Part shown: in pieces, positions 1-59,100 of the stretch
Numbering within the stretch: position 1 is the first letter of the stretch
Layout: every line of letters starts with the position of its first letter
Assembly (NCBI RefSeq): GCF_023055435.1
Contig: NW_025963813.1
Coordinates: 6,758,001 to 6,822,000 of the forward strand
From: Haliotis rufescens
Lineage: Eukaryota
Length of the DNA stretch: 64,000 nucleotides
Reading direction: 5' to 3'
The notes under the pieces: generated by a model
What the model was told of the DNA's origin: nothing
Databases searched by the model: none
Seen by the model: only the letters and a program-made list of their open reading frames with translations
Translations under genes and position numbers: made by a program

Positions 1-10
1 TCACAGGACA

Positions 11-7244: not shown

Positions 7245-9220
7245 TTAACTGAGCATGTACATCACTTGGAGTGCCAGTAAACTCAGCTTGTACATCACTT
7301 GGAGTGTCTGTAAACTGAGTGTGTACATCACTTTGAGTACCTGTAAACTGATTTTGTACATCACTTTGAGTACCTGTAAACTGATTTTGTACATCCCTTT
7401 GAGTACCTGTAAACTGATTTTGTACATCACTTTGAGTACCTGTAAACTGAGTGTGTACATCACTTTGAGTACCTGTAAACTGATTTTGTACATCACTTTG
7501 AGTACCTGTAAACTGATTTTGTACATCACTTATGGTACCTGTAAACTGAGTGTGTACATCACTTTTAGTTCCTGTAAACTGATTTTGTACATCACTTTGA
7601 GTACCTGTAAACTGATTTTGTACATCACTTATGGTACCTGTAAACTGATTTTGTACATCACTTATGGTACCTGTAAACTGATTTTGTACATCACTTATGG
7701 TACCTGTAAACTGATTTTGTACATCACTTATGGTACCTGTAAACTGAGTGTGTACATCACTTTTAGTTCCTGTAAACTGATTTTGTACATCACTTATGGT
7801 ACCTGTAAACTGATTTTGTACATCCCTTTGAGTACCTGTAAACTGAGTGTGTACATCACTTTGAGTACCTGTAAACTGATTTTGTACATCACTTTGAGTA
7901 CCTGTAAACTGATTTTGTACATCACTTATGGTACCTGTAAACTGAGTGTGTACATCACTTTTAGTTCCTATAAACTGATTTTGTACATCACTTTGAGTAC
8001 CTGTAAACTGATTTTGTACATCACTTATGGTACCTGTAAACTGATTTTGTACATCACTTATGGTACCTGTAAACTGATTTTGTACATCACTTATGGTACC
8101 TGTAAACTGATTTTGTACATCACTTATGGTACCTGTAAACTGAGTGTGTACATCACTTTGAGTACCTGTAAACTGATTTTGTACATCACTTTGAGTACCT
8201 GTAAACTGATTTTGTACATCACTTATGGTACCTGTAAACTGATTTTGTACAGCACTTATGGTACCTGTAAACTGATTTTGTACATCACTTTGAGTACCTG
8301 TAAACTGATTTTGTACATCACTTATGGTACCTGTAAACTGATTTTGTACATCACTTATGGTACCTGTAAACTGATTTTGTACATCACTTATGGTACCTGT
8401 AAACTGATTTTGTACATCACTTATGGTACCTGTAAACTGAGTGTGTACATCACTTTGAGTACCTGTAAACTGATTTTGTACATCACTTATGGTACCTGTA
8501 AACTGATTTTGTACATCACTTATGGTACCTGTAAACTGAGTGTGTACATCACTTATGGTACCTGTAAACTGATTTTGTACATCACTTTGAGTACCTGTAA
8601 ACTGATTTTGTACATCACTTATGGTACCTGTAAACTGAGTGTGTACATCACTTTGAGTACCTGTAAACTGATTTTGTACATCACTTTGAGTACCTGTAAA
8701 CTGATTTTGTACATCACTTATGGTACCTGTAAACTGATTTTGTACATCACTTATGGTACCTGTAAACTGATTTTGTACATCACTTATGGTACCTGTAAAC
8801 TGATTTTGTACATCACTTATGGTACCTGTAAACTGAGTGTGTACATCACTTTGAGTACCTGTAAACTGATTTTGTACATCACTTTGAGTACCTGTAAACT
8901 GATTTTGTACATCACTTATGGTACCTGTAAACTGATTTTGTACATCACTTATGGTACCTGTAAACTGATTTTGTACATCACTTTGAGTACCTGTAAACTG
9001 ATTTTGTACATCACTTATGGTACCTGTAAACTGATTTTGTACATCACTTATGGTACCTGTAAACTGAGTGTGTACATCACTTTTAGTTCCTGTAAACTGA
9101 TTTTGTACATCACTTTGAGTACCTGTAAACTGATTTTGTACATCACTTATGGTACCTGTAAACTGAGTGTGTACATCACTTTTAGTTCCTGTAAACTGGG
9201 CATGTAGATCACTTCGAGTA
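7245..9220. repeat. 33-bp tandem minisatellite (~59 units) inside the transposon
   Basis: Unit TGTACATCACTTATGGTACCTGTAAACTGATTT with modular variants; the overlapping ORF has an 11-aa period. Confidence 0.97.
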
Positions 9221-19105: not shown

Positions 19106-19167
19106 AGAAGCATTTGTAGTTTTTTAACCAAAATAATTATAAAACATAACCAAATGAGACGGCGGGG

Positions 19168-20725
19168 GCCACCTGCACAGTAGATAGTAACATTATACCA
19201 CATGATGGCCACCTGCACAGTAGATGGTAGCATTATACCACATAATGGCCACCTGCACAGTTGATAGTAACATTATACCACATAATGGCCACCTGCACAG
19301 TAGATAGTAACATTATACCACATAATGGCCACCTGCACAGTTGATAGTAACATTATACCACATAATGGCCACCTGCACAGTAGATGGTAGCATTATACCA
19401 CATGATGGTCACCTGCAAAGTAGATGGTAGCATTATACCACATAATGGCCACCTGCACAGTAGATGGTAGCATTATACCACATGATGGCCACCTGCACAG
19501 TAGATAGTAACATTATACAACATAATGGCCACCTGCACAGTAGATGATAGCATTATACCACATAATGGCCACCTGCACAGTTGATAGTAACATTATACCA
19601 CATGATGGCCACCTGCAGAGTAGATGGTAGCATTATACCACATAATGGCCACCTGCACAGTAGATAGTAACATTATACCACATGATGGCCACCTGCAGAG
19701 TAGATGGTAGCATTATACCACATAATGGCCACCTGCACAGTAGATGGTAACATTTTACCACATGATGGCCACCTGCACAGTAGATAGTAACATTATACCA
19801 CATAATGGCCACCTGCACAGTAGATGATAGCATTATACCACATAATGGCCACCTGCACAGTTGATAGTAACATTATACCACATAATGGCCACCTGCACAG
19901 TAGATAGTAACATTATACCACATGATGGCCACCTGCACAGTAGATAGTAACATTATACCACATGATGGCCACCTGCTCAGTTGATAGTGACATTATACCA
20001 CATAATGGCCACCTGCACAGTAGATGGTAACATTATACCACATAATGGCCACCTGCACAGTTGATAGTAACATTATACCACATAATGGCCACCTGCACAG
20101 TAGATAGTAGCATTATACCACATGATGGCCACCTGCACAGTAGATAGTAACATTATACCACATGATGGCCACCTGCACAGTAGATGGTAGCATTATACCA
20201 CATGATGGCCACCTGCACAGTAGATAGTAACATTATACCACATAATGGCCACCTGCACAGTAGATGGTAACATTATACCACATGATGGCCACCTGCACAG
20301 TAGATAGTAACATTATACCACATGATGGCCACCTGCACAGTAGATAGTAACATTATACCACATGATGGCCACCTGCACAGTAGACGGTAAGATTATACCA
20401 CATGATGGCCACCTGCACAGTAGATGGCAACATTATACCACATGATGGCCACCTGCACAGGAGATAGTAACATTATACCACATGATGGCCACCTGCACTG
20501 GAGATAGTAACATTATACCACATGATGGCCACCTGCACAGTAGACGGTAAGATTATACCACATGATGGCCACCTGCACAGTAGATGGCAACATTATACCA
20601 CATGATGGCCACCTGCACAGTAGACGGTAAGATTATACCACATGATGGCCACCTGCACAGTAGACGGTAAGATTATACCACATGATGGCCACATGCACAG
20701 GAGATAGTAACACTATACCACATGA
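19168..20725. repeat. 40-bp tandem minisatellite (~39 units)
   Basis: Unit GGCCACCTGCACAGTAGATAGTAACATTATACCACATGAT. Confidence 0.97.
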
Positions 20726-22065
20726 TAATAAGTTCCAACTTAATATCTTGAAATTTCAAGATACTATCGAAAAAAATAAAAAACAAATGGCCCTAAAAGG
20801 CTTCCTACATTTGCCCATCAACCAGATAATATTTTAATTTCGGTTATTAATTGATCATGCTAATACTTAAATATTGCTCAGTGCCCCTTATGTTCAAAGA
20901 AATGTTTATTAACCATTAGCCATGGTTGGTAGCCTAAAAAGAAATGACAAATGCATTTGCCTGATTGTGATAGCATATCTCTCACAATTCTTGACGACAT
21001 TCTTTACCACAATATTTATCACAATTAAGCCGATAACATTTCAGCATCACGATGGAAATTATTTACAATGAATTTTATCAAATAAAAAACAAAATGTTGC
21101 ACCAAACTTCAGTGGTTTATGATTGTGTACCTCTCATGATCATGATTATAAGAAGGATTTTCTTAATATTATTTCAAATGACATATTTTGTAATTGTATG
21201 CTGGTATTGGTGTCTGTGAATGGCTCCCATCTTTCTTTGTATTGCAATAGTTTCTTGCAGTTTCCTTTTTTTCCAGTGATTGATGTAGGTATGGAGGTAT
21301 TTTGGTTTGTTGCCAGCTAATATCGAAGTGAGGATGGACGCCGGTCATAAAATTGTTGTTGTTTTTTTACATATATCCACGTAAACACATATGAGCCTGT
21401 ATCAATATTAACTCAAAACGGTCATCTGATGGAGGGACCCCGAAAAACAAGTGGTTGAAACAAGCGTCAGAAATTGTCTCAAGTCCTCGCTAAACTCTCC
21501 AATAATTATGGTATCATAAGGACTAGTAGACATTTGACATTATTAAGGGATTCATTAAATGTTATCATTATAAGGACTAGTGGACTAAAACAGTTAGTTT
21601 CTGTCGTTGTTGGTTTTCATAAACAACATGCTTTCATCTTCTGACATGTTTCGTTTGGACTGTGCGCACCGGAAGTGGACAGTTGTCCGGGGGGACAACT
21701 CTGTCGATTTTTCCTTTGGGGTTTCCTTGCACGGCGCCAAGCTTTATATGCTTTGCTTTGAGAAAGTTTCTTGCGGATGAGCAATAGTTGGAAATATGTT
21801 AACAAACTCTTAAAAGAAACCTTATTTTTATCTCCCACATGTATAATAATGTGTGTACATACGAAATAAATAAATGATAATGAAATATTTTTTAAAACAT
21901 TCCTGATATTTAGTTTTTGTCTTTTCTAAAAAAAATTACACCAAAATGTTTGTGTTGGTCCGACACGATGATCAAACGGAGAAACTCTTTGATATGAGTA
22001 ACAGTTAGATAGTTGTGGGTTTAACAATATCTGCATGTCTTCACTGATCTAGTTCTTTATAAAAT

Positions 22066-23716: not shown

Positions 23717-25080
23717 TCAGTTCCCGCTAGATGTGCCTGAAATTGTCCGCAATAAGTTCGAGTCTTTATTATATCTGTTTTCAACATATTCGATATGTTT
23801 GCTCCAAGTCAGGTGTTGATCTAGGATCAGGCCTAGAAATTTGATTGGTTTGCCTTTTATGGAGAGAAAGGGTATTATAGCATCTTTCTCCCTGCGTTTG
23901 AATGGAACTCCCACAGTTTTTTTTCACTTGAAAGAGTGAACACCCATTCATTGCATCATTGATCTACTCCATCCATGGCTGACTGGAGTGACAGAACGTT
24001 TAATGCTGCCTGTGGCGTGCTGTTGTCTGGTGACATTGGAATGATTGTTCCCTATTTCAACTGATAGCAACAGGTCTTGCAAGAAGCTGTCTATGAAGTT
24101 TGCCATGTTCCATTCTTCTCCAGTTTGTGCTTGTTTGGTAAGGGGTCCACTATGCTATACCACGTCGAAGGCTTTGCTGAAGTCCAGAAATACTGCGGCT
24201 AGGTATAGTCTGTTTAATCGACATTTATTTACTTCATTTTCCAGTCTTAGTGTATGATCTAAACACGAGTGTCTCTCCCCGAAGCCGCTTTGATCAGGTT
24301 TGATGTGGTTGCAAGTTTCAAGGTGATGCGTGATTTTTCTTTTGTAGCCATGGCTTTCATAGTTCTGCACATGTTTGAAGTTAACCTTTTCTTTGACTGT
24401 TGGGGCGGTCGGGTAGCCTAGTGGTTCAAGCGTTCGCTCGTCACGCCGTAGATTCGGGTTCGATTCCCGACATGGGTACAATGTGTGAAGCCCATTTCTG
24501 GTGTCCCCCGCCGTGGTATTGCTCGAATACTGCTAAGAGCGGCGTAAAACCATACTCACTAACTCACTCTCACTCACACTCACTCTCTGTACGGGAATGG
24601 GGGTAACTTCGGAATTTTTGTAGGTTTACGCTCAGCCCTGATTGCATGTATTTTGCTCCAGACTGTTTTTAATCAGCATTTGTGGTTTCATTTAGAGATT
24701 TGCAGGTTTGCCATGACTCCATTTTAGAATCGTCTATGAGGTGTCTTACTTTTGTCCTGGATGCTGAGACTTGGGCGAAGACTGATTCATCCCATTTAGA
24801 CATATGGGCTTTCTTTCTCACTCTTTTGCTTTCGTTATTTCCCTGTTTCACCATGGTACCGAAGTTTTGCCGGTTGTGCCGGCTTTTGGGGGGAATTGAT
24901 TCAGCTGCGACAATAATTATTGAGGTGAGAATGTGGCAAAAAAGATCAGGATTATCCGATGCAATTCCTGGTGATTTGAATGATGTACATTCCTCCCTAA
25001 ATTTGAGCCAATCAGCCTTTGCATAGTCCCATGTAGGCAAAGGATTGGTCTGTTCCTCTAATGTTGGTGGGCTGCCCATA
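23717..25080 (-). pseudogene. Degraded non-LTR retrotransposon ORF2 (reverse transcriptase; I-group/Nimb-like), interrupted by a SINE
   Basis: Fragments WDYAKADWLKF, QSGF...SCLDH..RLEN..YLAAVFLDFSKAFDVV and IKFLGLILDQHLTWSKHI...NLLRTISGTS occur in the correct order with frameshifts. Confidence 0.85.
24402..24586 (+). mobile_element. Family-A tRNA-derived SINE nested in the LINE relic
   Basis: GGGGCGGTCGGGTAGCCTAGTGG...GGTTCGATTCCC...(ACTC)n. Confidence 0.9.
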
Positions 25081-25683
25081 GCACTACGAAAACAGGGTTA
25101 GTCCAGAGTAGAAAAAGCGAACGCAGGCATGTACATGCACGTTGCTATATAAATGCTAAAATCGTGAACCTGACTAAACCCCATGGCACTAACCCTACTT
25201 CTTTAAGCTGAAAACCAGATCTGACAGAAACACAAGGCCATAGCCAGGGTGCTACACAAATTACAGAGAAGAATTGCTTTTTCCATATTTTATTAACACA
25301 TAGAATAATGTTGATATCACCAAGATATCGGATATGATTTATCATATATCACAAGTAGAATATATAAAAAGTTCCGATGTAAACATGATCAACAGTTAAC
25401 AAGTCAATGTGGAATTTATGAAGTAAACGAGTGTGAGTGGAGGACCTTCACGGTTGCAGATTCTGACGGAATCACTGTCGTACACAATACCATCTTTGGT
25501 GATCCAGGGTATTATATCTCCCTTCTATCATGATAAATACCCTGAACCCATTCGATAGGTCATATTACCATCTCTATGAGAATTTCTATCATGATTGTAA
25601 TCTATATTTAAGCATTACCTATTTCGACTCAACTGGAGGCAATGGTAGTGAATGGGTCCAAGAAGATATTATACACTGGATGA

Positions 25684-26033
25684 CAATACTGGTTCTTGTA
25701 GAATCTGTGTCAAACACTATACTGGTTCCGACAGAATCTATGTCAAACACAATACTGGTTCTGACAGAATCTATGTCAAACACAATACTGGTTCTGACAG
25801 AATCTATGTCAAGCACAATACTGGTTACGATAGAATCTATGTCAAACACAATACTGGTTCTTGTAGAATCTATGTCTAACACAATACTGGTTCTGACAGA
25901 ATCTATGTCAAACACAATACTGGTTCCGACAGAATCTATGTCAAACACAATACTGGTTCCGACAGAATCTATGTCAAACACAAAACTGGTTCCGACAGAA
26001 TCTATGTCAAACACAAAACTGGGTCCAACAGAA
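25684..26033. repeat. 33-bp tandem repeat (~10 units)
   Basis: Unit ACAGAATCTATGTCAAACACAATACTGGTTCTG. Confidence 0.93.
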
Positions 26034-30728: not shown

Positions 30729-32809
30729 ACTTAAAAGTATCTTTCACCTGGTGCCATTGTACAAAACCTTAGTGCTACAAATGTTGTAAGCCAAGGTTAA
30801 GGCATGGGAGTTACAATCACCTTAGCGCTAAGATTGCTTTGTACAACGGCACCCTGTATGTTATTAGGTTTAAAATATGTTGCGTTGTCTATGACACGTC
30901 ATTCAAAGAAAATAGAACTGGTAAAATAGATCAATAGGAATTCCCAAACATTAACCAAATGAAGTCATTGAGGATGTAACAGGATAGAAAGTTGAGATTA
31001 CCACAGATACCTGTTTCAACAGTCTCTTCATTCAATCACACTTATGTATCCATGGCAACGATATATGAAATGTATACAAATATATGAAATATAGTGATAA
31101 TGTTGCCGTGGTGATATGTTACATGACCTGACAAAGATTTGAGCGCAAGTTAAGAAAAAATAAATCAACATGTTATCACACAATCTGCATAAATACAAAG
31201 CTGATGTAAACACAGTAAATGGAATCATGTATGTAAAACGAAGTTCAGGATATCATCCCAGAATCCCCAAACCAGAAGTAAAAGGATATGGACTTTGTAA
31301 TCTAAAAATTAACAAAGGGACCAATAATTTAACATGTTTGTTGTTTAACGCAGCACTCGGTTATATTCCAGCCATATGACGAGAGCCTGTAAATAATCGA
31401 GTCGAGACCAGACAATCCGGTGACTGATATCATGAGCAACATTCCACACCGTTGGGGTACGAAGACATGCTGTCAACCACGTCACCAACCATCTGATTAG
31501 TTTGGTCAGCTCTTATGACCAGCACAGGCTGCTGGGGCCGGAATGTCCGAGAGACTACATTTTCAGTGGGGCATAGGACCAATCTGTCAGTTTCCAGGGA
31601 GGTTCTGTCTTTTTGGGGGGTTTATTTTGATAAATGATAAAGTAGGTAAGTTTTATGCTATGAATTGCTTCAGGTGTGGGAGCCAGCAGGGGAAAAGAGA
31701 CCTGGCCTTGGACCAGAAAATACATTGGAATGAAAACTTACAATTTACCTGCACTTAAGCCTTCTGGTTCTATAATCCTGTGAAATGTTCAGTCATATAT
31801 CCAAATTGAGTTCTATGTAATATCAGCCCTAACTGAGGATAGATAACACAAGCATATAAACCGACATCAGTATTTAGAGTGATGAACATTACAGAAAAAA
31901 TATGTCCTCAATAAGGGCGGCAATGCATTCACGATTGCCCCTGATAGATGATGATTAACTTGTTACCTCACAAGCTTGAATAAAACAAAACAAAAAATTA
32001 ACAAAATTAACAGAAAATTCACAACCATAGAACATAAAATGTACACCGAGATTCAAACTTTGAAATGTGACAACGATCTGAAACAACCATCTTGAAATCA
32101 GAACACAAGAAGCTCCACACAGGTTCAACCGTGACTGACCCTGGTGAAGAGTTCTGTCTAGAGTATAATGGACGGTTCTGTTCAACTCCTGTCACACAGT
32201 GGACATATTCTCTACAGATACAGAAACACCCTGTTTTTATGCACCTTGTTAAACCGGACACCTCTCATTCTAGACAATGACAAATCACAAAGTCACAACA
32301 AATTGATTACAGAATCACCAGCTGTTTTACGAAATGATCAGACTTACTTCCAAACTACCTCTCTAGCCCAGAAGCACCTTCACAAGCTTCAGAAGATTTT
32401 CAAATTCAAATTTCTAATCTAAAATCGACCAATCAAAAACACAATGTTTACACTTGATATAATGATAAAAGTCATTCTCGTAAATTGCTCATTATCTGAA
32501 AACAATCTTCATAGCAAGATCGGATATTTGAAAATATAACCCAAGTAGTGAAACAACAGACTAATCAAGATAATGTTGTGTACGATTAAGGGACAAACAT
32601 CACTAGAACATAATGGATTCTGGTATATTTTACACTTGTGCTTCTACAATTAGGACAAATCTATACCCCAAACCATCAAATAGTTACATTGTTCTAGATT
32701 ATAGATCTCCATCTCACAATACAATCATGAATAAGGTTTATCTGACATACAGACTTCCATTGCCTCTGAGGTTACTTCATACAGGACCTCCACTTGGAAG
32801 ACCTCTTAA

Positions 32810-33372
32810 CACACAGGATCTCTACGTACAAGATCTCTACATACAGGATCTCTACATACAAGACCTCTACGCACAGGATCACCACACAGGCAAGCTCTGT
32901 ACACAAGATCTCTACATACAGGATCTCTACGTACAATATCTCAACACACAGGTTCTCCACACAGGCAAGCTCTGTACACAAGATCTCTACTTACAAGATC
33001 TCTACGTTCAAGATCTCCACACCCAGGATCTCCACACAGGCAAGCTCTGTACACAAGATCTCTACATGAAAGATCTCTCACATATAGGTCTAAAAAATAC
33101 AGGATCTCTACACTCAGGATCTCCACACAGGCAAGCTCTGTACACAAGATCTCTACATGAAAGATCTCTCACATATAGGTCTAAAAAATACAGGATCTCT
33201 ACACTCAGGATCTCCACACAGGCAAGCTCTGTACACAAGATCTCTACATGAAAGATCTCTCACATATAGGTCTAAAAAATACAGGATCTCTACACTCAGG
33301 ATCTCTACACACAGGATCACCACACAGGCAAGCTCTGTAACAAGATCTCTACATACAGGATCACCACACAGG
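32810..33372. repeat. Complex tandem repeat built on a ~15-bp CAGGATCTCTACATA unit with higher-order repeats
   Basis: Repeated GATCTCTAC / CAGGCAAGCTCTGTACACAA blocks. Confidence 0.9.
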
Positions 33373-33642
33373 AACTTTACATACATCTCTTCACATATTC
33401 TTGCCACTAACTCACTATAAGCGAGGATTGAATAGGAATCTGTAAGTTAAGATACTTTGGGTACAGTCATGTGTAAATAATCATAAAAATAATAATCTAG
33501 AATATTCTACTAGTAATCTACACCATACAAAGGACATAAATGATATCCTTGTACAAAGTCTACCTCAATATTCAAGAATAAATAAATAAATGTTGTCCTA
33601 AGACCATAAACTCTGATAATACATAGCTATATAATCATGGTA

Positions 33643-34122
33643 ACAATGGTAAGCCAATGCTTTATGACGAACTGGAGTACCAACAATGGTAAGCCAATGC
33701 TTCATGACAAACTGGAGTACCAACAATGGTAAGCCAATGCTTCATGACAAACTGGAGTACCGACAATGGTAAGCCAATGCTTCATGACAAACTGGAGTAC
33801 CAACAATGGTAAGCCAATGCTTTATGACGAACTGGAGTACCAACAATGGTAAGCCAATGCTTCATGACAAACTGGAGTACCAACAATGGTAAGCCAATGC
33901 TTTATGACAAACTGGAGTACCAACAATGGTAAGCCAATGCTTTATGACAAACTGGAGTACCAACAATGGTAAGCCGATGCTTTATGACAAACTGGAGTAC
34001 CAACAATGGTAAGCCAATGCTTTATGACAAACTGGAGTACCAACAATGGTAAGCCGATGCTTTATGACAAACTGGAGTACCATCAATGGTAAGCCAATGC
34101 TTTATGACAACCTGGAGTACCA
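33643..34122. repeat. 40-bp tandem repeat (12 units)
   Basis: Unit AACAATGGTAAGCCAATGCTTTATGACAAACTGGAGTACC. Confidence 0.95.
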
Positions 34123-36640: not shown

Positions 36641-37074
36641 CATTTGACCAAATCCCATTTGACCAAATCCCATTTCACCTAACCTCACCTGTGCCACCAT
36701 ATGTGTGCTGCTTGGTCGTAAAACATCTCAAGTAGGATTTGTATGGAGAGCAGTGTCATGCTCTCAGAAGTCATCGTGTACCCTGTTTAGAATATTCAAA
36801 CTATTGATTTCAGCACCAGATCTCTTCAAACAAGATAACAAGAGCTATCACAAGCCTCACAATACGATGAGACTGATCTGTTTAACATCTGTAAGAATTG
36901 ATTTCTCAATGTGTTCTGTGACAGAAAAACATTTTAAGATTGTCCTAGTCCCTGTTTCATAAGGCAATCATACCACTGTGATGCAGGACCCATTTCACAA
37001 ACCTATTGACGTGCTACAACTGTCGTAAGTAAATCAACGTAATGGTATATAATGGACTTCTAGTGCAATGGCTG

Positions 37075-37780
37075 TTGTAAGTCTATGTTAAAGTATAGTC
37101 ATAAAAATAGTTGTAAGTCTATGTAACATATGAGATTAAAGATTGTCGTAAGTCTATGTAACATATAGGAGTAAAGATTGTCGTAAGTCTATGTAACATA
37201 TAGGAGTAAAGATTGTCGTAAGTCTATGTAACATATAGGAGTAAAGATTGTCGTAAGTCTATGTAACATATAGGAGTAAAGATTGTCGTAAGTCTATGTA
37301 ACATATAGGAGTAAAGATTGTCGTAAGTCTATGTAACATATAGGAGTAAAGATTGTCGGAAGTCTATGTAACATATAGGAGTAAAGATTGTCGTAAGTCT
37401 ATGTAACATATAGGAGTAAAGATTGTCGGAAGTCTATGTAACATATAGGAGTAAAGATTGTCGGAAGTCTTTGTTAACTTATAGGAGTATAAATAGTCGT
37501 AAGTCTTTGTTAAAGTATAGGTTTGAGTAAAGATTGTCAGAAGTCTATGATAAAGCATAGTAGTAAAAATAGTCGGAAGTCCATGTTAAAGTATAGGAGT
37601 AAAGATTGTCGTAAGTCTATGTAAAATATAGGAGTAAAGTTTGTTAGAAGTCTATGTTAAAATATACCTGTAAAAATTAGTCATAAGTCATGTTAAAGTT
37701 CATGAGTAAATATAGTCATAGGTCTACTTTAAGTTATAGGAGTAAAGATTGTCGTAAGTCTATGTTATAGTATAGGAGTT
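37075..37780. repeat. 35-bp tandem repeat (~20 units) bounded by imperfect TIRs
   Basis: Unit AAGATTGTCGTAAGTCTATGTAACATATAGGAGTA. Confidence 0.93.
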
Positions 37781-37968
37781 AAGAAAGTCCTAGCACTGTG
37801 ATCACTTTGTGAAACAGGTCCCAGCTGTGTACAAAAGCAGTGGTCTTATGACAGTCTCAGAGTGAACTACATCATAGATCACAGGCGGGAAGTATGTATA
37901 TCTGGGGGCATAATGGTGACAAGATTCTAGGGTTGTTGCTCATCTTCATATGCTGGACCACGGCCCTC

Positions 37969-44100: not shown

Positions 44101-47100
44101 GTGGGTTTGGTTTGATGCCCCACTATTAGCATTATTATGCCTCAAAGTGAGATTGACCAATCAGAGAGCAGAACTACTGACCCAACATGAGCCCGTTTAC
44201 TGTCAGAAAAAATCCAAGATGGTTGTAACTGACCTAATATGACAACGTATACAGTCAGTAATAGCCATTTTGGATTTTCCAACACCCACCTCACATATTT
44301 CACATAAAAATTCTGGTACAGAAAATCATTATTCGACACTGTTTTGTGTTTTAATATAATTAATTGTGATGCTCACGACTCGCAAAATATTCTTCTGCTA
44401 ACCTAATATAACACTGTATACACCCACTAAAGACACCATAACCAATAATATTCCAGACATGTTAGGTCAATTGGTACATGTTATACCCACACTGGGATTA
44501 GAACTGAGACTTTGGCATTAATGTTTTAACTACCAGGCAATGCAACCGCCCTTATTAGATTAAAAAACAACAACTACAAAATGTTGTCCCTCTAAATCAA
44601 TTGGACAGGTAAGCCCCTGTAATACAAATGTTATCTTATTTAATATGAAAAAAGCATGGGTAAAGTATAGTGAATAATTTGAATAATTACTTACTGACAA
44701 CACTGCACTTTGTTGGCAAGGGGATCCTGGCTTTGAGGCTGCTGATGAAGTTCTTGATTTTACTCAGATGTTTCTCACAGAAATGTTGCACACCATCATG
44801 GGTCGGTTCAAACTGAAACAATGTGATCATCTTGCATCTTGTACACCAAGGGAAGTGTTCAGGCACTTGGAAAACATCGAGCTGGGACCCTGATATTACT
44901 AAACTCATAAAATAAGAGATAGATATAAGATACAGGAACAAATACTGATCAGGTCCCCTCATCTATTCATAACTCTATTCGGTTTTTTCCCCAAAAAGTG
45001 AACATTTTTATATTTTAAAAAAATGAAATAATGTTTTAGATGTATATAACCATGATAACTGTTCCAAATATATAGGCTTGACTCGGAAAGTAAATTAGCT
45101 CGTATTTGTGTTTCGTAAATTAGCTCCTTTGTATGCATGCTGAAAAAGCTTCATTGGGTATTTACGCATGCTGTTTTTATACATTTGAATTTTTCAATTA
45201 ATGCATGCATTTCTGTATGCAAGTTAATTGAAAGTAATTGGGTTTGAAATATTTTGGGGGGTATTTTACTCAAATATGCTGCTTATCTGTAGCTCTGCTG
45301 TAACAAAGACTTACAGCAGTCGTAGCGCTAAGATGCTTTGTGGCCCCTGGGCTTTTATTATGATTTAGGTGGTTTCTAATAAATTACATATGCATTACAG
45401 TACCATGCTTTACTGATTATGACATTGAAGTTTGGCTCCTTTAATTTTCCCCTGGCTCCTTGTAAACAAATGTAAGGAGCCACTAGTTCATAAAGTAAAG
45501 AGCTAAACCTGGAGGCCTACAACATGAATTAAAGTATTTAAAAAAGCTGATAACAAACAAGGTTAGAAATGTAAATGTTCTGGAAATGATTGCAGTAAAG
45601 ACTCAGACATCCCATGCAGGGTATTCAGAAAATCTGATTAAAATCAAACCTTATTTGGGTGTAAAATAACCACAAGACAAGGTGGCCATTATTATTTTCC
45701 ATTCAGAACTTCCCGTTTATGTTCGTTACTGCTTTGCTTACTTGTAATGAGAATTTAGAAATCGACATGATGATTGGCTGATATGGACATTTTTTCAGAT
45801 CTTGACGGAGAGAGTATCAAATCTGGGACAGAGAGAGGTATCAAATCTGAGAGAGAGAGGTATCAAATCTGAGTCAGAGATCTGATTTGAACGAGATTAG
45901 GTATGTAGAGAAAGACAAGACACTCACAGATTGGTTCTGTCCGGTCAATGTGGAGGCGCTGTTGGCGGAGAGTCTCTCTGATATAAGTGTGGACGTCGGA
46001 CTCCCTGCTCGGTCACTCCCAACACCCATGTTGGAGCTGCTTGCCCTGGAAACGCAAGCAAATACATGTGTACTCATTCAGCACAACCAGTGAGGATTCT
46101 AGGTTAGAAATGGCCCCCAGCAACCTTCAAGGTGACGTAATGAAGTGGGTGGTTAGACATGGTGACTTGGTTAATAGCTTGTCAGTGTGGCCTGATGGTG
46201 AGGATTGCTGCTCATAACATCAATCACTGGTTTGATCCACCGTCATATAACTGGACTATTGCTGAGGGGGGCGTTAAACAAAAAACAAGCAAACAAGCAT
46301 ACAGGGTGGAGCTCGTGTTACCACAACAGACTGACAGACATAAAGATTCACTTCAAGGCCAACTCAGACATGTTTAAGAATTCATTGAAGTCACAGCACA
46401 ACATTTATATTACCCAAATCAATGTATCAGTGTGCACACGAATTTCATAATCAGGTCCGAAGGGAGGGGGGGACACAACCTGGGAGGTTTACAGTCACAT
46501 TATCTTTTCAAAATCTATCGATAAATACCCTGGACCTATTGCTGACATATTTTGTTTCAAGACAACCACAGCACAGCCAACTGCAGGAATTTAGCGGGAG
46601 GACCATTGTGCCCCTACATGGTATACATGGACTCCATAATTCAATATTAATTTTTAAAGCTTGAATTCGTATTTGCCATTTGGGAGTACAGCAACTGAAT
46701 TTGTACGTCTTAGCTATGGGTGTGCATTATCAATAATTTAGAGTGTCTTATTGTCACACAGAACTATCCTACTGATAACACAACATAATATCCTGATTAT
46801 TCTGATAACAACATAATGTTATGGCCTGCCCACATTAGAAAATCAAGACTTGCAAGTTGATCAGACTTCAAAACTGTTTCACTTCTGCATCTCTAATAGC
46901 TTTCATATGGCAGACTGACATCTACCATTTCCGATTCCATACGCAGATCCAGAGGAGTTGCTGGTGCACACACACCTTTGTGAAGTATACTCACCACATT
47001 GAATATAAAATATATTTTAACTAAATCATTTCCTCACTCACGCAAATTGTTTCCCGAATTATGAGCTGGCATCCCCACCCCTTTTCCCAAAAGCTGTGCA

Positions 47101-50100: not shown

Positions 50101-53100
50101 TTAATCTTCTGTATGGTATCAACCCCTCTCACTCAAGAAGAAAATCATTATTTTAGGAGGCAAAGTTTCAGGATGTCATAGATGAGCTGTGTAAGTTTCT
50201 AGCTGAGCTGGTACAATTTTAGATGACCCTTCTCACTTGTCATACCCTTGCTATATGTTTTACCATCCAGACATTTTTTACTTGTTCCCAATCTTATATC
50301 CTAAAGATCTAAAATGTCTTATATTTCTGTTTGCCTTAAATAATTGTTAAGGACACTGTTTTCTTTCGTAAATCAGTTTTGATCCATGTCATGTCAAACC
50401 AGAATAACTATAGTAATATGAAAGAATTGGTGGTCCTTAACTTCTTGTAAAAAGTATATTTTCAGCCCACCCAACAATTCAAACTTAATTTTGCAAATTA
50501 TGTAAAAAATTAATTTCATCATTAAACCAAGAAATGAAACGGAAGACGTGGAGCAAATCATGTACTGGAGATTAGGGACACCTACTATTTCTTGAGATCT
50601 TCTTTCATTTGTTGAACAAAGAGTCGAACTGCACTGGATCCACTGGATGCCAGCTTTCCAACTTCCTCCATGTTGTCTACCAATAGGGTGTTGTGATTCA
50701 GTCCAATACCTCGTATCTCCTGGAGGATTGTGGGTAATAGGGCTGGCTCTGTTGTCGTTAACCTACTCACCAGATAGTTCATCGACTTCTTAGCTTCCGT
50801 CTGGTCATGAAACAGAAGACCAATGTAAAATTTCATGTGGTTTATCATTAGACCTCTGCGACATATTATTGGCCATACTATTACAATGATAAAAGGCATT
50901 ACCAATCTAAGCAGATAAAGAATACTATACAGAGAAGGATTATGCAGGGCCGATATTTGACCCAAATTCTGGCATTTGCGAAGACAAGTACGGAAGGCTT
51001 CCTCAGGCAACTGCTAGCAGGTTTATAAATACCACAGCATTCACAACAAATATCATGTGGATTGGCTGATGAATAAGTATGTCTGCAATTCTTACAGACC
51101 GGTGATTTATCATGATCAGTTCCCATAATTTGCTGAAGATGATGATGAGATAAGAGAAAACTTTTAAAAAAATATAATCAATTCTCCACCAATCGAAACA
51201 CGGTCACACACAGTGGCAATGAGAAAGAGAATGATGTGGGAGGGGTAGTCAAGTGATCAGGCCAGGTTCCGTCACAGCACATGGGATTACTGTGCATGAC
51301 ACATTTTTTTGAGTGGTGACTGCTGGGATGTGTTCAAGCGAAATGTTTTAAGAAGCTGGATACTATTTTAGGTCGTTTCCACACAAGGATAGATGGTGAA
51401 GGATGAAAATCAAAGTGTGAGATAGGATAAATTTCAGGATAGGCTTTGTAGAGTGAGTGAGTGAGTGAGTGAGTGAGTGAGTGAGTGAGTTTAGGTTAAC
51501 GTATCTTTTAACAGTATTCCAGTTTTTCACGGCGTGTCAGCTTAATGTGGGAGGAAAGCCCTAGGTCTTCCTAGGTACTAGTAATCTTCATTACGACCAC
51601 CCACTTCCCATTAAGCCAACCCTTACAACCAACCTTGGACCCACTTCTGCCATGCCACTGCAAGAATTCCAGGTCAGAACACATTGCCATTATCACATCC
51701 TGGGCAATCTGATGGTGCCCATGATCTTGGCAATCTGTGGCACCAGTATTGTCTAGGCCTTGATATTCCCCACTACTGACCTGACTGATGGTGCCAATGG
51801 CACCCATGATCTGGGCAACCTGTGGCACCAGTATTGTCTACTGCTTGATATTCCCCACAACTGACCTGACTGACAGTGCCGATGGCGCACATGATCTGGG
51901 CTATCTGTGGCACCAGTTTTGTCTACTGGCGCACATGATCTGGGCTATCTGTGGCACCAGTTTTGTCTACTGGCGCCCATGATCTCGGCTATCTGTGGCA
52001 CCAGTATTGTCTACTGCTTGATATTCCCCACTACTGACCTGACTGATGGTGCCAATGGCACCCATGATCTGGGCAACCTGTGGCACCAGTATTATCTACT
52101 GCTGGATATTCCCCTCAACTGACCTGACTGATGGTGCCGATGGCGCACATGATCTGGGCTATCTGTGGCACCAGTTTTGTCTACTGGCGCACATGATCTG
52201 GGCTATCTGTGGCACCAGTTTTGTCTACTGGCGCCCATGATCTGGGCTATCTGTGGCACCAGTATTGTCTACTGCTTGATATTCCCCACTACTGACCTGA
52301 CTGATGGTGCCAATGGCACCCATGATCTGGGCAACCTGTGGCACCAGTATTGTCTACTGCTTGAAACTCCCTGCTACTGACTGGACTGATGGTGCCGATG
52401 GCGCCCATGATCTTGGCAACCTGTGGCACCAGTTTTGTCTACTGGCGCACATGATCTGGGCTATCTGTGGCACCAGTATTGTCTACTGGCGCCCATGATC
52501 TCGGCTATCTGTGGCACCAGTATTGTCTAGGCCTTGATATTCCCCACTACTGACTGGACTGATGGTGCCGATGGCGCCCATGATCTGGGCAACCTGTGGC
52601 ACCAGTATTGTCTACTGCTTGATATTCCCCACTACTGACCTGACTGATGGTGCCGATGGCACCCATGATCTGGGCAACCTGTGGTACCAGTATTGTCTAC
52701 TGCTTGATATTCCCCACTACTGACCTGACTGATGGTGCCGATGGCACCCATGATCTGGGCAACCTGTGGCACCAGTATTGTCTACTGCTTGATATTCCCC
52801 ACTACTGACCTGACTGATGGTGCCGATGGCGCCCATGATCTGGGCAACCTGTGGCACCAGTATTGTCTAGGCCTTGATATTCCCCACTACTGACCTGACT
52901 GATGGTGCCGATGGCACCCATGATCTGGGCAACCTGTGGCACCAGTATTGTCTACTGCTTGATATTCCCCACTACTGACCTGACTGATGGTGCCGATGGC
53001 ACCCATGATCTGGGCAACCTGTGGCACCAGTATTGTCTACTGCTTGATATTCCCCACTACTGACCTGACTGACGGTGCCAATGGCACCCATGATCTGGGC

Positions 53101-56100
53101 AACCTGTGGCACCAGTATTGTCTACTGCTTGATATTCCCCACAACTGACCTGACTGACAGTGCCGATGGCGCACATGATCTGGGCTATCTGTGGCACCAG
53201 TTTTGTCTACTGGCGCACATGACCTGGGCTATCTGTGGCACCAGTTTTGTCTACTGGCGCCCATGATCTCGGCTATCTGTGGCACCAGTATTGTCTACTG
53301 CTTGATATTCCCCACTACTGACTGGACTGATGGTGCCGATGGCGCCCATGATCTGGGCAACCTGTGGCACCAGTATTGTCTACTGCTTGAAACTCCCCAA
53401 TACTGACCTGACTGATGGTGCCGATGGCGCCCATGATCTTGGCAACCTGTGGCACCAGTATTGTCTACTGCTTGAAACTCCCCAATACTGACCTGACTGA
53501 TGGTGCCGATGGCGCCCATGATCTTGGCAACCTGTGGCACCAGTATTGTCTACTGCTTGATATTCCCCACTACTGACCTGACTGATGGTGCCGATGGCAC
53601 CCATGATCTGGGCAACCTGTGGCACCAGTATTGTCTACTGCTTGATATTCCCCACTACTGACCTGACTGATGGTGCCGATGGCACCCATGATCTTGGCAA
53701 CCTGTGGCACCAGTATTGTCTACTGCTTGATATTCCCCACTACTGACCTGACTGATGGTGCCGATGGCACCCATGATCTGGGCAACCTGTGGTACCAGTA
53801 TTGTCTACTGCTTGATATTCCCCACTACTGACCTGACTGATGGTGCCGATGGCACCCATGATCTGGGCAACCTGTGGCACCAGTATTGTCTACTGCTTGA
53901 TATTCCCCACTACTGACCTGACTGATGGTGCCGATGGCACCCATGATCTGGGCAACCTGTGGCACCAGTATTGGCTGCTGATCTGCAACTTCCTCCAGCT
54001 TTGCACGATGCTCAACAAATGTTTTGGGTTTGTCAGTTGCCATGTCAACAAACATGAGCATCACCACAGCTCCCAGCATGTTGCTAGGGAACAGCTCACA
54101 GAACTTGGGAACATGTTCCTCTAAAAGCTGAGAATGAACAGAATAAAAGAGAAAGCATGTTTTAGACTATATTTTGAAAACTCGTCCAATGGAAAAGTCG
54201 TATATCGTGTAAAATTATATATTATCGACTTCCACAATCATGGAGAGGAGTGAGTATATACCTGATCAGAAATATTCCACAATGTGATGCAGGCATGAAA
54301 ATATGTCATGACACAATCTGAATAAATACTATACGATCTATATACAATGCACACATATACTGCTGTATGTAATATATGAATATTGTTTAATTGTTTGTTG
54401 TATCCACCTATTAATATTCCAGCAATATGACAGTGGAATATATATTGAATCACCAGGGCTCGAATAAGCAATATAAAACATGCACCAGTGCAAACTATTA
54501 TTGAAAATATACAACCTAATATTTAAGTCTACAAGGCAAAGTGCATGTCTAAATCTTTCAAATTTGTGGCTAACCCTTACTTGTCCATACAAAATCTGTC
54601 TTTGAACACACTCAGTACCCCTAAGCTTTATATACCATACTACGTCAACAAAACCTGTTATGTGTTATTTGCCATGTTTTTTGTTGTTGTTGTTGGGGGT
54701 TTTTTTTAGGGGGGCTTGACATCATCAAACAGTGGGTGCACATTCAACTCTCAGTCTGATAAATTTGTGGGACTAGTGTGCAACTTGGTTTTGTCTGGTG
54801 CAACTAGGTTTTTTTTATGTCAAAATCACCTGGTGCCTGTTGAATCAAGTTCCATAATAACCCTGACAACAGACATGGTAACTCTATCAGCATACATATA
54901 AGTGAAGACATCATGAAGCAAAAGAAGTCTTTAACCATGACAACAAAGATATTTCAGTGTAGACACATGACATCCATTTGCTGCTGCATCTACCTGGGGT
55001 TTCTTCTTGGCAATGGAACCAAAGACCTGGATGAGGGAAACTTTCTCGGAGGAGTCACACTTGTCCAGCAAGGCTACCAGGTCATCTACATGGTCGTCCA
55101 CCGGCACCGGGTTCTGGGCGTAGATCTGTGGCATCACCTGACTCATCTGGTAGTTACCTAGACACCACAGAGGGCATGTATCACACAAAGGTCATGTATC
55201 ACACATACAGGTCATGTATTACACATACAGGTCATGTATCACACATACAGGTCATGTATCACACATACAGGTCATGTATCACACATACAGGTCATGTATC
55301 ACACACACAGGTCATGTATCACACATACAGGTCATGTATTACACAGGTCATGTATCACGCACAGATGTCATGTATCACACACAGAGGTCATGTATCACAC
55401 AGGTCATGTATCACACACAGAGGTCATGTATCACACACAGAGGTCATGTATCACACATACAGGTCATGTATCACACATACAGGTCATGTATCACACACAG
55501 AGGTCATGTATCACACATACAGGTCATGTATCACACATACAGGTCATGTATCACACATACAGGTCATGTATCACATGTAGAGGTCATGTATTATACACAG
55601 AGGTCATGTATTACACACAGGTCATGAATCACACACACAGGTCATGAATTACACACAAAGGTCATGTATCACACTGGTCATGTATCACACACAGAGGTCA
55701 TGTATAACACACAGGTCATGTATCACACACAGAGGTCATGTATAACAAACTGAGGTCATGTATTACACACACAGGTCATGTATCACACAGGTCATGTACC
55801 ACACATAAGTCATGTATTACACACACAGGTCATGTATTACACACAGGTCATGTATCAAACACACAGGTCATGTATCACACACAAGTCATGTATCACACAG
55901 GTCATGTATCACACACAAGTCATGTATCACACAGGTTATGTATCACACACACAGGTCATGTATCACACACAAGTCATGTATTACACACACAGGTCATGTT
56001 TTACACACAGGTCATGTATTACACACACAGGTCATGTATCACACACAAGTCATGTATTACACACACAGGTCATGTATTACACACAGGTCATGTATCACAC

Positions 56101-59100
56101 ACAGAGGTCATGTATTACACACACAGGTCATGTTTCACACACACAGGTCATGTATCACACATAGAGGTCATGTATCACACACACAGGTCATGTATTACAC
56201 AGGTCATGTATGACACACACAGGTTATGTATTACACACAGGTCATGTATCACACACACAGGTCATGTATTACACACAGAAGTCATGTATTACAGAGGTCA
56301 TGTATTACACACAGAGGTCATGTATTACACACAGAGGTCATGTATTACACACAGGTCATGTATCACACACACAGGTCATGTATCACACACACACACGGGT
56401 CACATATCACACATAGGTCATGTATTTCACGTAGGACACTACAGCCACCTACCACACAGGACACTACAGATACATGCCCCACAGGATACTACAGCCACCT
56501 ACCCCACAGGATACTACAGCCACCTACCCCACAGGACACTACAGCATCCTACTCCACATGACACTACAGACTCCTTCTCCACAGGACACCACAGCCACCT
56601 ACCCCACAGGACACTACAGCCACCTACCCCACAGGACACTACAGCCACCTACCCCACAGGACACTACAGCCACCTACCCCACAGGATACTACAGCCACCT
56701 ACCCCACAGGACAGTACAGCCACCTACCCCACAGGATACTACAGCCACCTGCCCCACAGGACACTACAGCATCCTACTCCACATGACACTACAGACTCCT
56801 TCTCCACAGGACACCACAGCCACCTACCCCACAGGACACTACAGCCACCTACCCCACAGGACACTACAGCCACCTACCCCACAGGACACTACAGCCACCT
56901 ACCCCACAGGACAGTACAGCCACCTACCCCACAGGATACTACAGCCACCTACCCCACAGGACAGTACAGCCACCTACCCCACAGGACAGTACAGCCACCT
57001 ACCCCACAGGATACTACAGCCACCTGCCCCACAGGACACTACAGCCACCTACCCCACAGGATACTACAGCCACCTGCCCCACAGGACACTACAGCCACCT
57101 ACCCCACAGGACACTGCAGCTACCTACCCCACAGGACACTACAGCCACCTACCCCACAGGACACTACAGCATCCTACTCCACAGCACGCTACAGCTACTT
57201 ACCATGCAGGACTCTACAGCCACCTACCCCACACAGCACTAGTCACCTACCCCACAGCACGCTACAGCTACCTACCACGCAGGACACTAACTACGATGAG
57301 GGCCATGTGTTTAGCCAAGAGGTCAGCATTGTCGATGGTGGCAAGGGAGAGGTAGCTGGACACATTCCGTGAAAGGTCTTTATTCTCACAGTCCAGGAAC
57401 TGCACCACTGCCGGGATAGCCAGCGTCATCACACACTGCTTGTTGTAGTGCTGCAAACAGAGAGACACCAATGGTCATCTTCAGAGTAGGACAGTGGTCA
57501 CTAATCAATGGTCACCAGATTAATGTTGGATGAAAACATAAAGGTCTCTGGATTAATTCAGGTTAATGTCAAAGACTTTCATCACTTTGCATTAAAAGCT
57601 ATTTTAGAACTTCTAGGAAACACTGTTGCAAACTGTTTTGTTGTCGTTCAGTTCATTTGCATAATTGTCTTAAATTTAGCATAATATAAGACGTAATTAC
57701 GATAAAATGGTGGCTGCAACAGGGTGTTGCAATGGCTGCCACAATCAAAATCAGGGTACATCAAACATTTGGTGTTTAAAACTAAGGGTGGTCCAAGGGT
57801 CCTTCAGATTTGCTCCCATAGACTTTCATTGGACTCTATTGTAAATTTGGGGTTGTTATCAGAACACATCAGTCACAAGTTTAACTTTGGGGTTGTTTTC
57901 AGAATGCATCAGACTCATTCATAAATTTGGGGTTGTTATCATAACATATTAGCCTCAAGTGTAAATTTCCTTCTTTAATAGGCATTTAGAGGTTGGAGTA
58001 CTAAGAAAGGATAAGAATCTATGGATGAACACCGTTATCAAGCAAGTGATAGACAGAGTGTCGTTGACAAGTACATATACAAGTAGGAGGCAATGTTTAT
58101 ACAGTAGAGTAGATATTGTTATACTGGAGTAGAGAAGCCTGTTATACATACACAAGGGTTGTGATGACAATCATCGGTGAAGTCAGTGACATAAACAAAC
58201 CTAACCTAACCTAACCCTAACACTAACATAACCATGTTAACAGAACCTAACAATAAGGATTAAATTGTAAATTTGGGGTTGAACATCAGAACATGACGAT
58301 AATGTAATTCAAAAGGATTTAGTAGTGCTGAATATGACAGTGTTTGAAGTTAAGGGGTCCTGTGGTCTTTGAGATCCTCTGCTACAGAGATCCCCGAAAT
58401 CTTTTAACGTTAGGTTTATCACAAGGACCCTTGACTTCCATGCTTAACTCCCACCACAGTACAGGACTATTCCTACCATGAAGAGACAGCTCATGACGTC
58501 AGAGGCTATCTTGACGTGGGGTGGGTCTTCCTCCTTCTTGGCGGGGGTGAGGTTGTGTGTGTGGCACATCTCCAGGAGACGCACCAGGGACTTGACATGC
58601 TTCTCTATACTAGACGTCTCCCTGTTTTGACAGGAGGTGCAAATGAGTCAGTGACGTTTATTGCATCTTTGAAATGTTTTCAGTCATATGACCACGATCA
58701 CAGCATGTAACACCACTTTTTAGTTATCAGTCAGGGTGGCCTCTTTTGGATGCGGATTTTCAATTCCTACTACAGGAGACGTTTTTTTGCTTTCAGGGGC
58801 AAAGTCACTGAAGCGCGTGAAAAAGGTTGGTTGGTTGGTTTGTTGTTTAACGCCGCACTCAGCAATATTCCAGCTATATGACAGCCGTCTGTAAATAATC
58901 GAGTCTGGACCAGACAATCCAGTGATTGACATCATAAGCATCGATCAACGCAATTGGGATCAATAACATGCACCAACCACGTCAGCGAGCCTGACCACAT
59001 GAAAAAGGACCTTGAATATCCTGCGTATTGGTGTCACTTCAACGTCAGCGCTTGGTTGATTCCCGGCCTTCATTACCACCAGGAGGCTCTTTAGGTGGCC

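What the first reader, a model, noticed from the sequence alone, without database searches (positions are those of the whole stretch)
55158..57289. VEPH1 intron 3 consists almost entirely of two satellites, each seeded from one of its own splice ends
Seen: the 2.1-kb intron has almost no unique sequence. The donor half is ~33 copies of a 25-mer equal to the last 14 exon nt plus the first 11 intron nt (gene strand TAGTGTCCTGTGGG|GTAGGTGGCTG versus real TAGTGTCCTGCGTG|GTAGGTAGCTG). The acceptor half is a ~20-bp array resembling the sequence just before the AG (GATACATGCCCTCTGTGGTGTCTAG). Inference: together with the exon-5 array, three splice ends in one gene have nucleated tandem expansions, suggesting a junction-anchored amplification mechanism that grows introns and creates decoy donors.
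Basis: partly seen in the sequence, partly recalled or inferred. Interest (0 to 1): 0.7.

Follow-up and report, generated by a model that had tools for sequence, protein, structure and literature searches.

The report
Splice-donor mirage repeats fill abalone intron
One intron of an abalone's VEPH1 gene is 99% filled by two local repeats, one of which copies the exon's splice signal about 33 times although the assembled RNA uses only the first, and in a sample of other genes such repeats begin three to four times more often near exon edges than deep in introns, so this is likely a common, tolerated kind of repeat already known from lancelets and humans.

Summary
Observation confirmed. The 2,118-nt third coding intron of abalone VEPH1 is 99% two arrays whose units were found nowhere else in the genome. 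The 25-mer (34.4 copies) spans the donor: a lancelet-type 'mirage', like the human F7 intron-7 repeat. The 16-20-mer only abuts the acceptor: it stops 8 nt before exon 4 and holds 2 AG in 1,257 nt. RNA contigs of three organisms join exon 4 straight to the first donor; a related organism's DNA has both arrays. I ran the enrichment test on 1.39 Mb around 406 called junctions: arrays span 9 of 205 donors (1.5-3.2 expected) but only 3 of 201 acceptors (1.5-3.1 expected); 27 more start within 100 nt inside introns (10-16 expected). Breakpoints do not cluster at the junction. So there is a broad exon-proximal excess, not precise junction anchoring, and two donor mirages in one 13-intron gene is unremarkable (P=0.11). 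Best reading: ordinary local duplications, filtered by splicing rules. Earlier notes of this scan list seven like cases elsewhere in this genome. The sample-wide rate (about 5% of donors) was not found in print in 8 searches.

The parts
57276..57450 (-). VEPH1 coding exon 3 (175 nt); its last 14 nt are the exon part of the first 25-mer copy
   Evidence: tblastn 100% to P0002 aa 119-177; covered by RNA contigs of X15, X17, X19
55158..57275 (-). Coding intron 3, 2,118 nt, phase 1, GT..AG, 99.2% tandem array
   Evidence: exon 3 to exon 4 join seen in RNA contigs of X16, X17, X20
56433..57289 (-). Donor-spanning 25-mer array ('mirage'), 34.4 copies; edge copies diverged, interior homogenised with repeated variant blocks; 26 GGGG runs on the gene strand
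   Evidence: locus-unique
57274..57275 (-). Authentic donor GT (GTG|GTAGGT, 8.3 bits on a matrix trained on this genome)
57201..57202 (-). Strongest decoy donor (ATG|GTAAGT, 10.2 bits), 73 nt inside the intron; 22 further copies score 8.0 and one is identical to the real 9-mer
56469..56479 (+). 11-nt inverted copy, inside the donor array, of the terminal copy of the acceptor array (55172-55182); possible template switch, not shown
56423..56446 (-). Meeting point of the two arrays: an exon-part-only last copy of the 25-mer and about 5-10 nt of spacer
55166..56422 (-). Acceptor-adjacent 16-20-mer array, about 65 copies, 2 AG in 1,257 nt; does not contain the acceptor
   Evidence: locus-unique; present in organism B DNA
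55158..55165 (-). 8 nt between the array and exon 4, ending in the acceptor TAG (CAG in organism B); 6.1 bits, below the 25th percentile of called acceptors
54994..55157 (-). VEPH1 coding exon 4 (164 nt)
53918..54127 (-). VEPH1 coding exon 5 (210 nt)
   Evidence: exon 4 to exon 5 join in RNA contigs of X16, X17
51711..53980 (-). Second donor-spanning array: 85-mer (55 exon + 30 intron nt) with 44-nt deletion variants; 18 intronic copies carry a donor 9-mer identical to the real one

Best explanation
The intron is filled by two locally born minisatellites, one spanning the splice donor and one ending 8 nt before the next exon, which likely arose as ordinary short tandem duplications, likely grew by slippage or unequal exchange, and likely persist because splicing still uses the first donor and the single acceptor. 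Shown: the anatomy, that the units occur only here, the normal splice in RNA contigs, both arrays in a related organism, and an excess of array ends within about 100 nt of exon edges in a 1.39-Mb sample. Inferred steps: (1) a short ancestral intron (roughly 50-80 nt if each array is collapsed to one unit) suffered two independent duplications with breakpoints unrelated to the junction; (2) copy number rose and interior copies were homogenised; (3) selection filtered the outcome: arrays inside exons are lost, donor copies downstream of the true donor are silent because the most upstream donor wins (shown for human F7, assumed here), and copies of the acceptor AG are less tolerated, so the 3' array stops short of it; (4) arrays pile up near exons mainly because that DNA is old, poor in mobile elements, somewhat GC-richer and hard to delete without hitting the exon.
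For: Locus-unique units. RNA: in 3 of 3 RNA runs laid on exon 4 the one contig continues with the last 30 nt of exon 3, no array copy kept; 3 of 3 RNA runs laid on exons 1-3 leave the genome at the first donor. Organism B DNA: five extra short contigs at depth 40-199 on the acceptor array against 39.8 single-copy; its single-copy contig ends so that its last 30 nt start at the first array base, as a repeat would break it (reading inferred). Breakpoints uniform around the junction, n=14, P=0.76. 0 of 290 arrays lie inside 43.8 kb of called exon. Junction-centred 20-mers that are the first copy of a repeat: donors 10 of 200, acceptors 3 of 201, against 3-4% at 12-100 nt inside introns on both sides and about 1% deeper; donor versus acceptor two-sided P=0.053. 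Dispersed repeats cover 3-14% within 100 nt of junctions and 22-33% farther in; masking them and weighting for GC raises the expected donor count from 1.5 to 3.2. The two units are not kin: 24% and 35% of 156 other units align as well. Reading into the array meets a stop at the third codon, so decoy use would give a truncated message. Precedent: PMC3087553, PMC3902484, PMC1557585.
Against: The excess does not vanish under my strictest null: donors 9 against 3.2 (P=0.006), proximal 27 against 15.1 (P=0.004), so step 4 is not shown to be sufficient; the mask only sees repeats with a second copy within 1.39 Mb and so undercounts. Arrays near junctions lean G- and T-rich on the sense strand (84 and 90 of 132, against 54% of background windows; P=0.016 and 0.0007), which fits a transcription-linked process. 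Both VEPH1 donor arrays end in an exon-part-only copy near junction phase, which a single plain duplication does not give. Contigs drop rare forms, so low-level decoy use is open. The donor/acceptor asymmetry is borderline. No array-free orthologous intron was seen.
Confidence: 0.66

Rival explanations
1. Birth bias: tandem duplications arise more often in the roughly 100 nt around exon edges because transcription and co-transcriptional splicing (polymerase pausing, R-loops, nucleosome or methylation borders) raise local breakage and gap repair there. This is the softened form of the first reader's idea; the selection filter still applies on top.
For: Excess survives masking, GC weighting and within-region placement. 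It depends on exon context, not on the motif: donor-like GT sites deep in introns are first copies in 10 of 876 cases (1.1%) against 10 of 200 real donors (P=0.001). Mild sense-strand G/T lean. The VEPH1 donor array has a G-skew of 0.55 on the gene strand. Junction-spanning arrays are longer than others (median 977 against 375 nt; period-matched P=0.04).
Against: No breakpoint clustering; acceptor junction at background; strand lean is no stronger in spanning or proximal arrays (7 of 12, 15 of 27 G>C) than in distal ones (62 of 93); greater length fits longer survival equally well; if half of deep-intron DNA is unrecognised mobile sequence the donor excess falls to about 2-fold (P=0.03); 0 of 34 kinase donors carry one.
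Confidence: 0.22
2. The arrays are kept by selection as regulators: decoy donors divert some transcripts to decay, or G-rich repeats act as intronic splicing enhancers, tuning VEPH1 output by copy number.
For: 24 decoys are about as strong as the real donor and one is stronger; any use gives an early stop; arrays are shared with organism B.
Against: Only the normal join is seen in RNA contigs; sharing at about 97% flank identity needs no selection; like arrays sit at about 5% of sampled donors in unrelated genes; in F7 such sites do not compete (PMC1557585).
Confidence: 0.06
3. The arrays are members of dispersed satellite or transposon-borne families that inserted in the intron and resemble the splice ends by chance.
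For: 34 of 290 sampled arrays do share a unit with another region, so such families exist in this genome.
Against: 24 of 24 and 24 of 24 genome matches lie in this intron; the first 25-mer copy is coding sequence conserved across molluscs.
Confidence: 0.02

Closest known systems
Lancelet 'mirage' minisatellites (Adh3, globins BflGb6 and BflGb9, troponin C, PGBD5); PMC3087553 (passages of abstract, section 16, references) and PMC3902484 (one passage)
   Same: Locus-specific tandem copies of an exon-intron boundary; unit size in the reported 10-160 bp range; copies carry splice signals; normal splicing continues; edge copies escape homogenisation; origin called unclear there too.
   Different: Mollusc, not cephalochordate; more copies (34) and the whole intron consumed; the acceptor-side array here does not span a boundary, so it is not a mirage; length and somatic instability not tested here; here a rate and a null test are given.
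Human F7 intron-7 37-bp VNTR, with 6-16, CBS intron 13, lamin B2 and PDGF intron 4 repeats; PMC1557585 (abstract, outline, passages of Introduction, Results, Discussion)
   Same: First unit spans the donor; many pseudo-donors follow in the intron; the most upstream site is used.
   Different: F7 pseudo-sites are identical to the true site, whereas 22 of the VEPH1 intron-3 copies differ at -2, one is identical and one is stronger; in 6-16 and CBS the nearest pseudo-sites are also used, which was not seen here; scanning was shown in mammalian cells, not molluscs.
Variable internal tandem repeats at exon-intron boundaries of human segmental-duplication genes; PMC2812944 (passages)
   Same: Minisatellites of about 30 bp at boundaries lengthen introns.
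   Different: There many change gene structure or create introns and alternative transcripts; here no new intron or exon is evident.

Membership tests
Mirage / junction-spanning minisatellite (donor 25-mer array) | Repeat unit spans an exon-intron boundary | tested here: met
   First copy = 14 exon + 11 intron nt; junction confirmed by RNA contigs
Mirage / junction-spanning minisatellite (donor 25-mer array) | Locus-specific, not a dispersed family | tested here: met
   24 of 24 matches in this intron at up to 2 mismatches
Mirage / junction-spanning minisatellite (donor 25-mer array) | Copies carry cryptic splice signals | tested here: met
   22 copies 8.0 bits, one 8.3, one 10.2, real 8.3
Mirage / junction-spanning minisatellite (donor 25-mer array) | Normal splicing from the authentic, most upstream site | tested here: met
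   One contig per run in X15, X17, X19 and X16, X17, X20, all at the first donor; rare forms cannot be seen in contigs
Mirage / junction-spanning minisatellite (donor 25-mer array) | Concerted evolution inside the array with divergent edge copies | tested here: met
   First five and last three copies differ from the interior consensus; variant blocks recur (read by eye, no tree built)
Mirage / junction-spanning minisatellite (donor 25-mer array) | Length polymorphism and somatic instability | not testable with these tools
   Only short-read contigs were available and they break at the arrays
Mirage (acceptor 16-20-mer array) | Repeat unit spans an exon-intron boundary | tested here: not met
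   Last copy ends 8 nt before exon 4; no exon sequence; 2 AG in 1,257 nt
Mirage (exon-5 85-mer array) | Repeat unit spans an exon-intron boundary | tested here: met
   55 exon + 30 intron nt; 18 copies with the real donor 9-mer; its dispersal and the exon 5 to exon 6 join in RNA were not tested
Dispersed satellite or transposon-borne repeat | Same unit at other genomic sites | tested here: not met

The most novel reading that the evidence does not exclude
Abalone genomes have a mutational bias that starts tandem duplications in a zone of about 100 nt at exon edges, so that about one splice donor in twenty carries a mirage and whole introns are built by it; splicing rules then shape the zone, letting arrays cross donors but stopping them short of acceptor AGs. 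This would make transcription or splicing a driver of intron growth in a mollusc and give thousands of natural decoy-site experiments.
Probability: 0.22. Interest if true: 0.7.

Novelty: new member of a known kind. Interest (0 to 1): 0.36.

Why it matters
The locus alone is ordinary: another tolerated junction-spanning repeat. What adds value is the measured background. In conserved genes of this genome about 5% of donors (10 of 200; 95% interval 2.7-9.0%) are the first copy of a repeat, arrays cover 13% of the sampled genic DNA, and array ends gather within 100 nt of exons. The lancelet paper called the origin of mirages unclear and their generality a guess; this genome makes both testable at scale, and offers many natural tests of how the spliceosome picks one site among dozens of near-equal ones. 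Practical side: such arrays can mislead gene models (the H. rubra protein P0003 lacks exon 4).

Tried and rejected
Common origin of the two arrays: rejected, unit likeness is at background. Donor motif itself seeding arrays: rejected, cryptic donor-like sites are at background. Fixed breakpoints at junctions: not seen. Assembly artefact: unlikely, copies vary and organism B contigs carry the arrays. Selective decay of decoy GTs: no general signal; in 9 sampled donor mirages GT is intact in all copies in 5 and in 8 of 36, 18 of 26, 17 of 19, 20 of 25 in the others. RNA structure hiding decoys: single folds of real and copy contexts are alike (-17 and -15 kcal/mol), uninformative. G-quadruplex drive: 26 GGGG runs but 21-nt spacing, only 2 short-loop motifs, not pursued. 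Exchange between array and coding exon: three exon-5 copies encode Val where the exon has Ile, as the H. rubra protein does, but the site varies among I, V and L in 19 homologues, inconclusive. The 11-nt inverted copy: three of its four changes occur in other copies, so chance is not excluded. No run on record as RNA was listed as holder; runs guessed as RNA were laid instead. No DNA of organism C or of distant abalones was available, so the array-free ancestral intron was not seen. Pfam found only the PH domain among nine VEPH1 stretches; identity rests on homology. The primary mirage paper (PMC117041) is not held and is cited second-hand. Paper searches found no genome-scale enrichment test and no mollusc case; the library lacks most subscription journals, and no supplements were read. 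39 of 261 chosen exon matches had no DNA in hand and were left out.
Full report
1. What is there. The window lies at G000:C35:6758001-6822000 of a 1.33-Gb genome. The minus-strand gene is VEPH1/melted: exon 1 finds VEPH1 proteins across animals, and six exons joined by coordinate give 372 aa identical to P0002, named H. rufescens VEPH1-like. Coding intron 3 is 57275-55158, 2,118 nt, phase 1. TRF finds a 25-mer x34.4 (56433-57289) and a 20-mer x64.3 (55166-56393), plus an 85-mer x26.6 at exon 5. The two arrays cover 99.2% of the intron.

2. Donor array. The first copy is the last 14 exon nt and first 11 intron nt. Interior copies are homogenised with recurring variant blocks; edge copies are divergent, and the last copy has only the exon part. 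On a donor matrix re-estimated from this genome the real site scores 8.3 bits; 22 copies score 8.0, one is identical and one, at 57202, scores 10.2. Reading on from exon 3 meets a stop at the third codon, so use of any copy would truncate the protein. The unit occurs only here: 24 of 24 matches at up to 2 mismatches.

3. Acceptor array. Units are 16, 18 or 20 nt. The last copy ends 8 nt before exon 4; the array has 2 AG in 1,257 nt and no exon sequence. It may repeat the branch-point region (inference). It too is locus-unique, 24 of 24, and is no more like the donor unit than other arrays' units are. So it abuts the acceptor but is not a copy of it.

4. RNA and relatives. Runs guessed to be RNA from organisms A, B and C were laid on stretches flanking the arrays. 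Contigs of X15, X17 and X19 cover exon 3 and leave the genome at 57273, which is the first donor plus three letters shared by intron and exon 4. Contigs of X16, X17 and X20 cover exon 4 and continue with the last 30 nt of exon 3; X16 and X17 also continue into exon 5. One contig per run; contigs cannot show rare forms. DNA of organism B (X13; 19 other letters and 7 gap letters in 724) has five extra short contigs at depth 40-199 on the acceptor array, and its single-copy contig ends at 57260, its last 30 nt starting at the first array base, as expected if the unit is repeated there (inference, assuming 31-letter words). Both arrays therefore likely predate the A/B split.

5. The enrichment test. 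I searched G000 with five Pfam families (457 rows), chose 261 rows before seeing any DNA (dropping whole-domain intronless matches, tandem paralog clusters and duplicate contigs), and held DNA for 222 of them in 135 merged regions, 1,391,194 bp. TRF gave 315 arrays of period 10 or more and 2.5 or more copies, covering 13% of bases; 290 were not microsatellite-like. Splice sites were called near match edges; 406 were kept (205 donors, 201 acceptors) and 38 weak calls dropped. These are computed calls, not annotated sites. Arrays span 9 of 205 donors against 1.5 expected under uniform seeding (P=2e-5) and 3.2 under the strictest null (within region, dispersed repeats masked, GC-weighted; P=0.006). 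They span 3 of 201 acceptors against 1.5-3.1 (not significant). 27 arrays begin within 100 nt inside an intron against 10.3-15.8 (P=1e-5 to 0.006). None lies inside 43.8 kb of called exon. The 12 spanning arrays are in 12 different regions. A TRF-free test agrees: a 20-mer centred on the junction is the first copy of a repeat at 10 of 200 donors and 3 of 201 acceptors; the rate is 2.8-3.8% at 12-100 nt inside introns, 0.6-1.2% beyond 100 nt, and 10 of 876 at donor-like GT sites deep in introns. By family the donor counts are kinesin 6 of 89, myosin 2 of 39, DEAD 2 of 30, kinase 0 of 34, ABC 0 of 8. Limits: five families, small counts, several junctions per gene, and a repeat mask that sees only 25% of bases as dispersed; doubling the deep-intron rate leaves the donor excess at P=0.03.

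6. Is the junction the anchor? The exon share of the unit in 14 spanning arrays (12 sampled, 2 from VEPH1) is 0.17-0.91 and fits uniform (P=0.76). Most sampled arrays end within or at the end of the intron part, as a plain duplication predicts (by eye); the two VEPH1 donor arrays end in an exon-part-only copy, which is unexplained. The picture is a broad exon-proximal zone that includes the junction at donors and stops short of it at acceptors (two-sided P=0.053). VEPH1 intron 3 shows exactly this pattern at both ends. At the sampled rates, two or more donor mirages in 13 introns has P=0.11, and arrays at or near both ends are expected in about 0.9% of introns.

7. How it likely works. Two independent short duplications in a small intron, growth by slippage or unequal exchange, and a splicing filter (all inferred). 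The filter has experimental precedent: in human F7 the most upstream of several functional donors is used and only perfect-consensus copies compete (PMC1557585, passages). Why arrays gather near exons is the open part. Age and freedom from mobile elements explain some of it; a residue of about 2-3-fold remains, and a mild sense-strand G/T lean keeps a transcription-linked birth bias alive at about 0.22.

8. What is known. Tandem copies of exon-intron boundaries were named mirages in lancelets, occur at both boundaries, do not disturb splicing and are of unclear origin (PMC3087553; PMC3902484; passages only). Human cases are F7, 6-16, CBS, lamin B2 and PDGF; boundary repeats in duplicated human genes are in PMC2812944 (passages). 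The donor and exon-5 arrays meet the defining feature; the acceptor array fails it. Earlier notes of this scan list seven like loci in this genome (unchecked AI notes, one gave the F7 lead); a word search of the notes for an enrichment test found none. Eight paper searches found no genome-scale test or mollusc case.

9. Verdict. Real, a new member of a known kind, probably harmless. Interest 0.36, carried mostly by the sample-wide rate rather than by this intron.

Noticed in passing
G000 regions (e.g. C201:5436.8k, C556:20389k, C556:3503k, C334:32577k, C445:58253k, C223:62579k, C445:29048k, C113:17004k; acceptors C446:1162k, C2:41299k, C24:39875k): A dozen further junction-spanning arrays (units 29-110 nt, 4-39 copies) in kinesin, myosin, DEAD-box and ABC genes; several more abut acceptors at 6-17 nt like the VEPH1 one.
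   Followed up: partly
135 sampled G000 regions, 1.39 Mb: Minisatellites cover 13% of this genic sample; only 34 of 290 units recur in another region and 5 of 290 sit inside dispersed repeats, so most look locally born.
   Followed up: partly
window 56469-56479 and 55172-55182: Perfect 11-nt inverted pair linking one donor-array copy to the terminal acceptor-array copy; may record a template switch from when the intron was short.
   Followed up: partly
protein P0003 (H. rubra VEPH1-like): Exon 4 is replaced by unrelated sequence, right after the exon-3 donor; likely a gene-model error at this same intron.
   Followed up: no
window 51711-53980: Three copies of the exon-5 85-mer encode Val where the exon has Ile, as the H. 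rubra protein does; the site is variable across molluscs.
   Followed up: partly
window 45795-45880: 22-mer x3.7 beginning about 45 nt inside the intron after VEPH1 coding exon 8: another exon-proximal array.
   Followed up: no
window 2-2503 and 3376-4458 (+): Long stop-free frames (834 and 361 aa); the first has weak zinc-finger hits below cut-off; may be a DNA transposon.
   Followed up: no
window 7256-9198, 19167-20726, 25683-26033, 32809-33362, 33642-34122, 37073-37784: Six more long minisatellites (units 30-40 nt) beyond the VEPH1 stop codon; relation to exons of other genes not checked.
   Followed up: no
window 23720-25097 (-): Broken frames resembling a LINE reverse transcriptase (recalled likeness; not searched).
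   Followed up: no
G000:C113:13.9-14.3 Mb: Tandem cluster of about 15 closely similar myosin-head genes.
   Followed up: no
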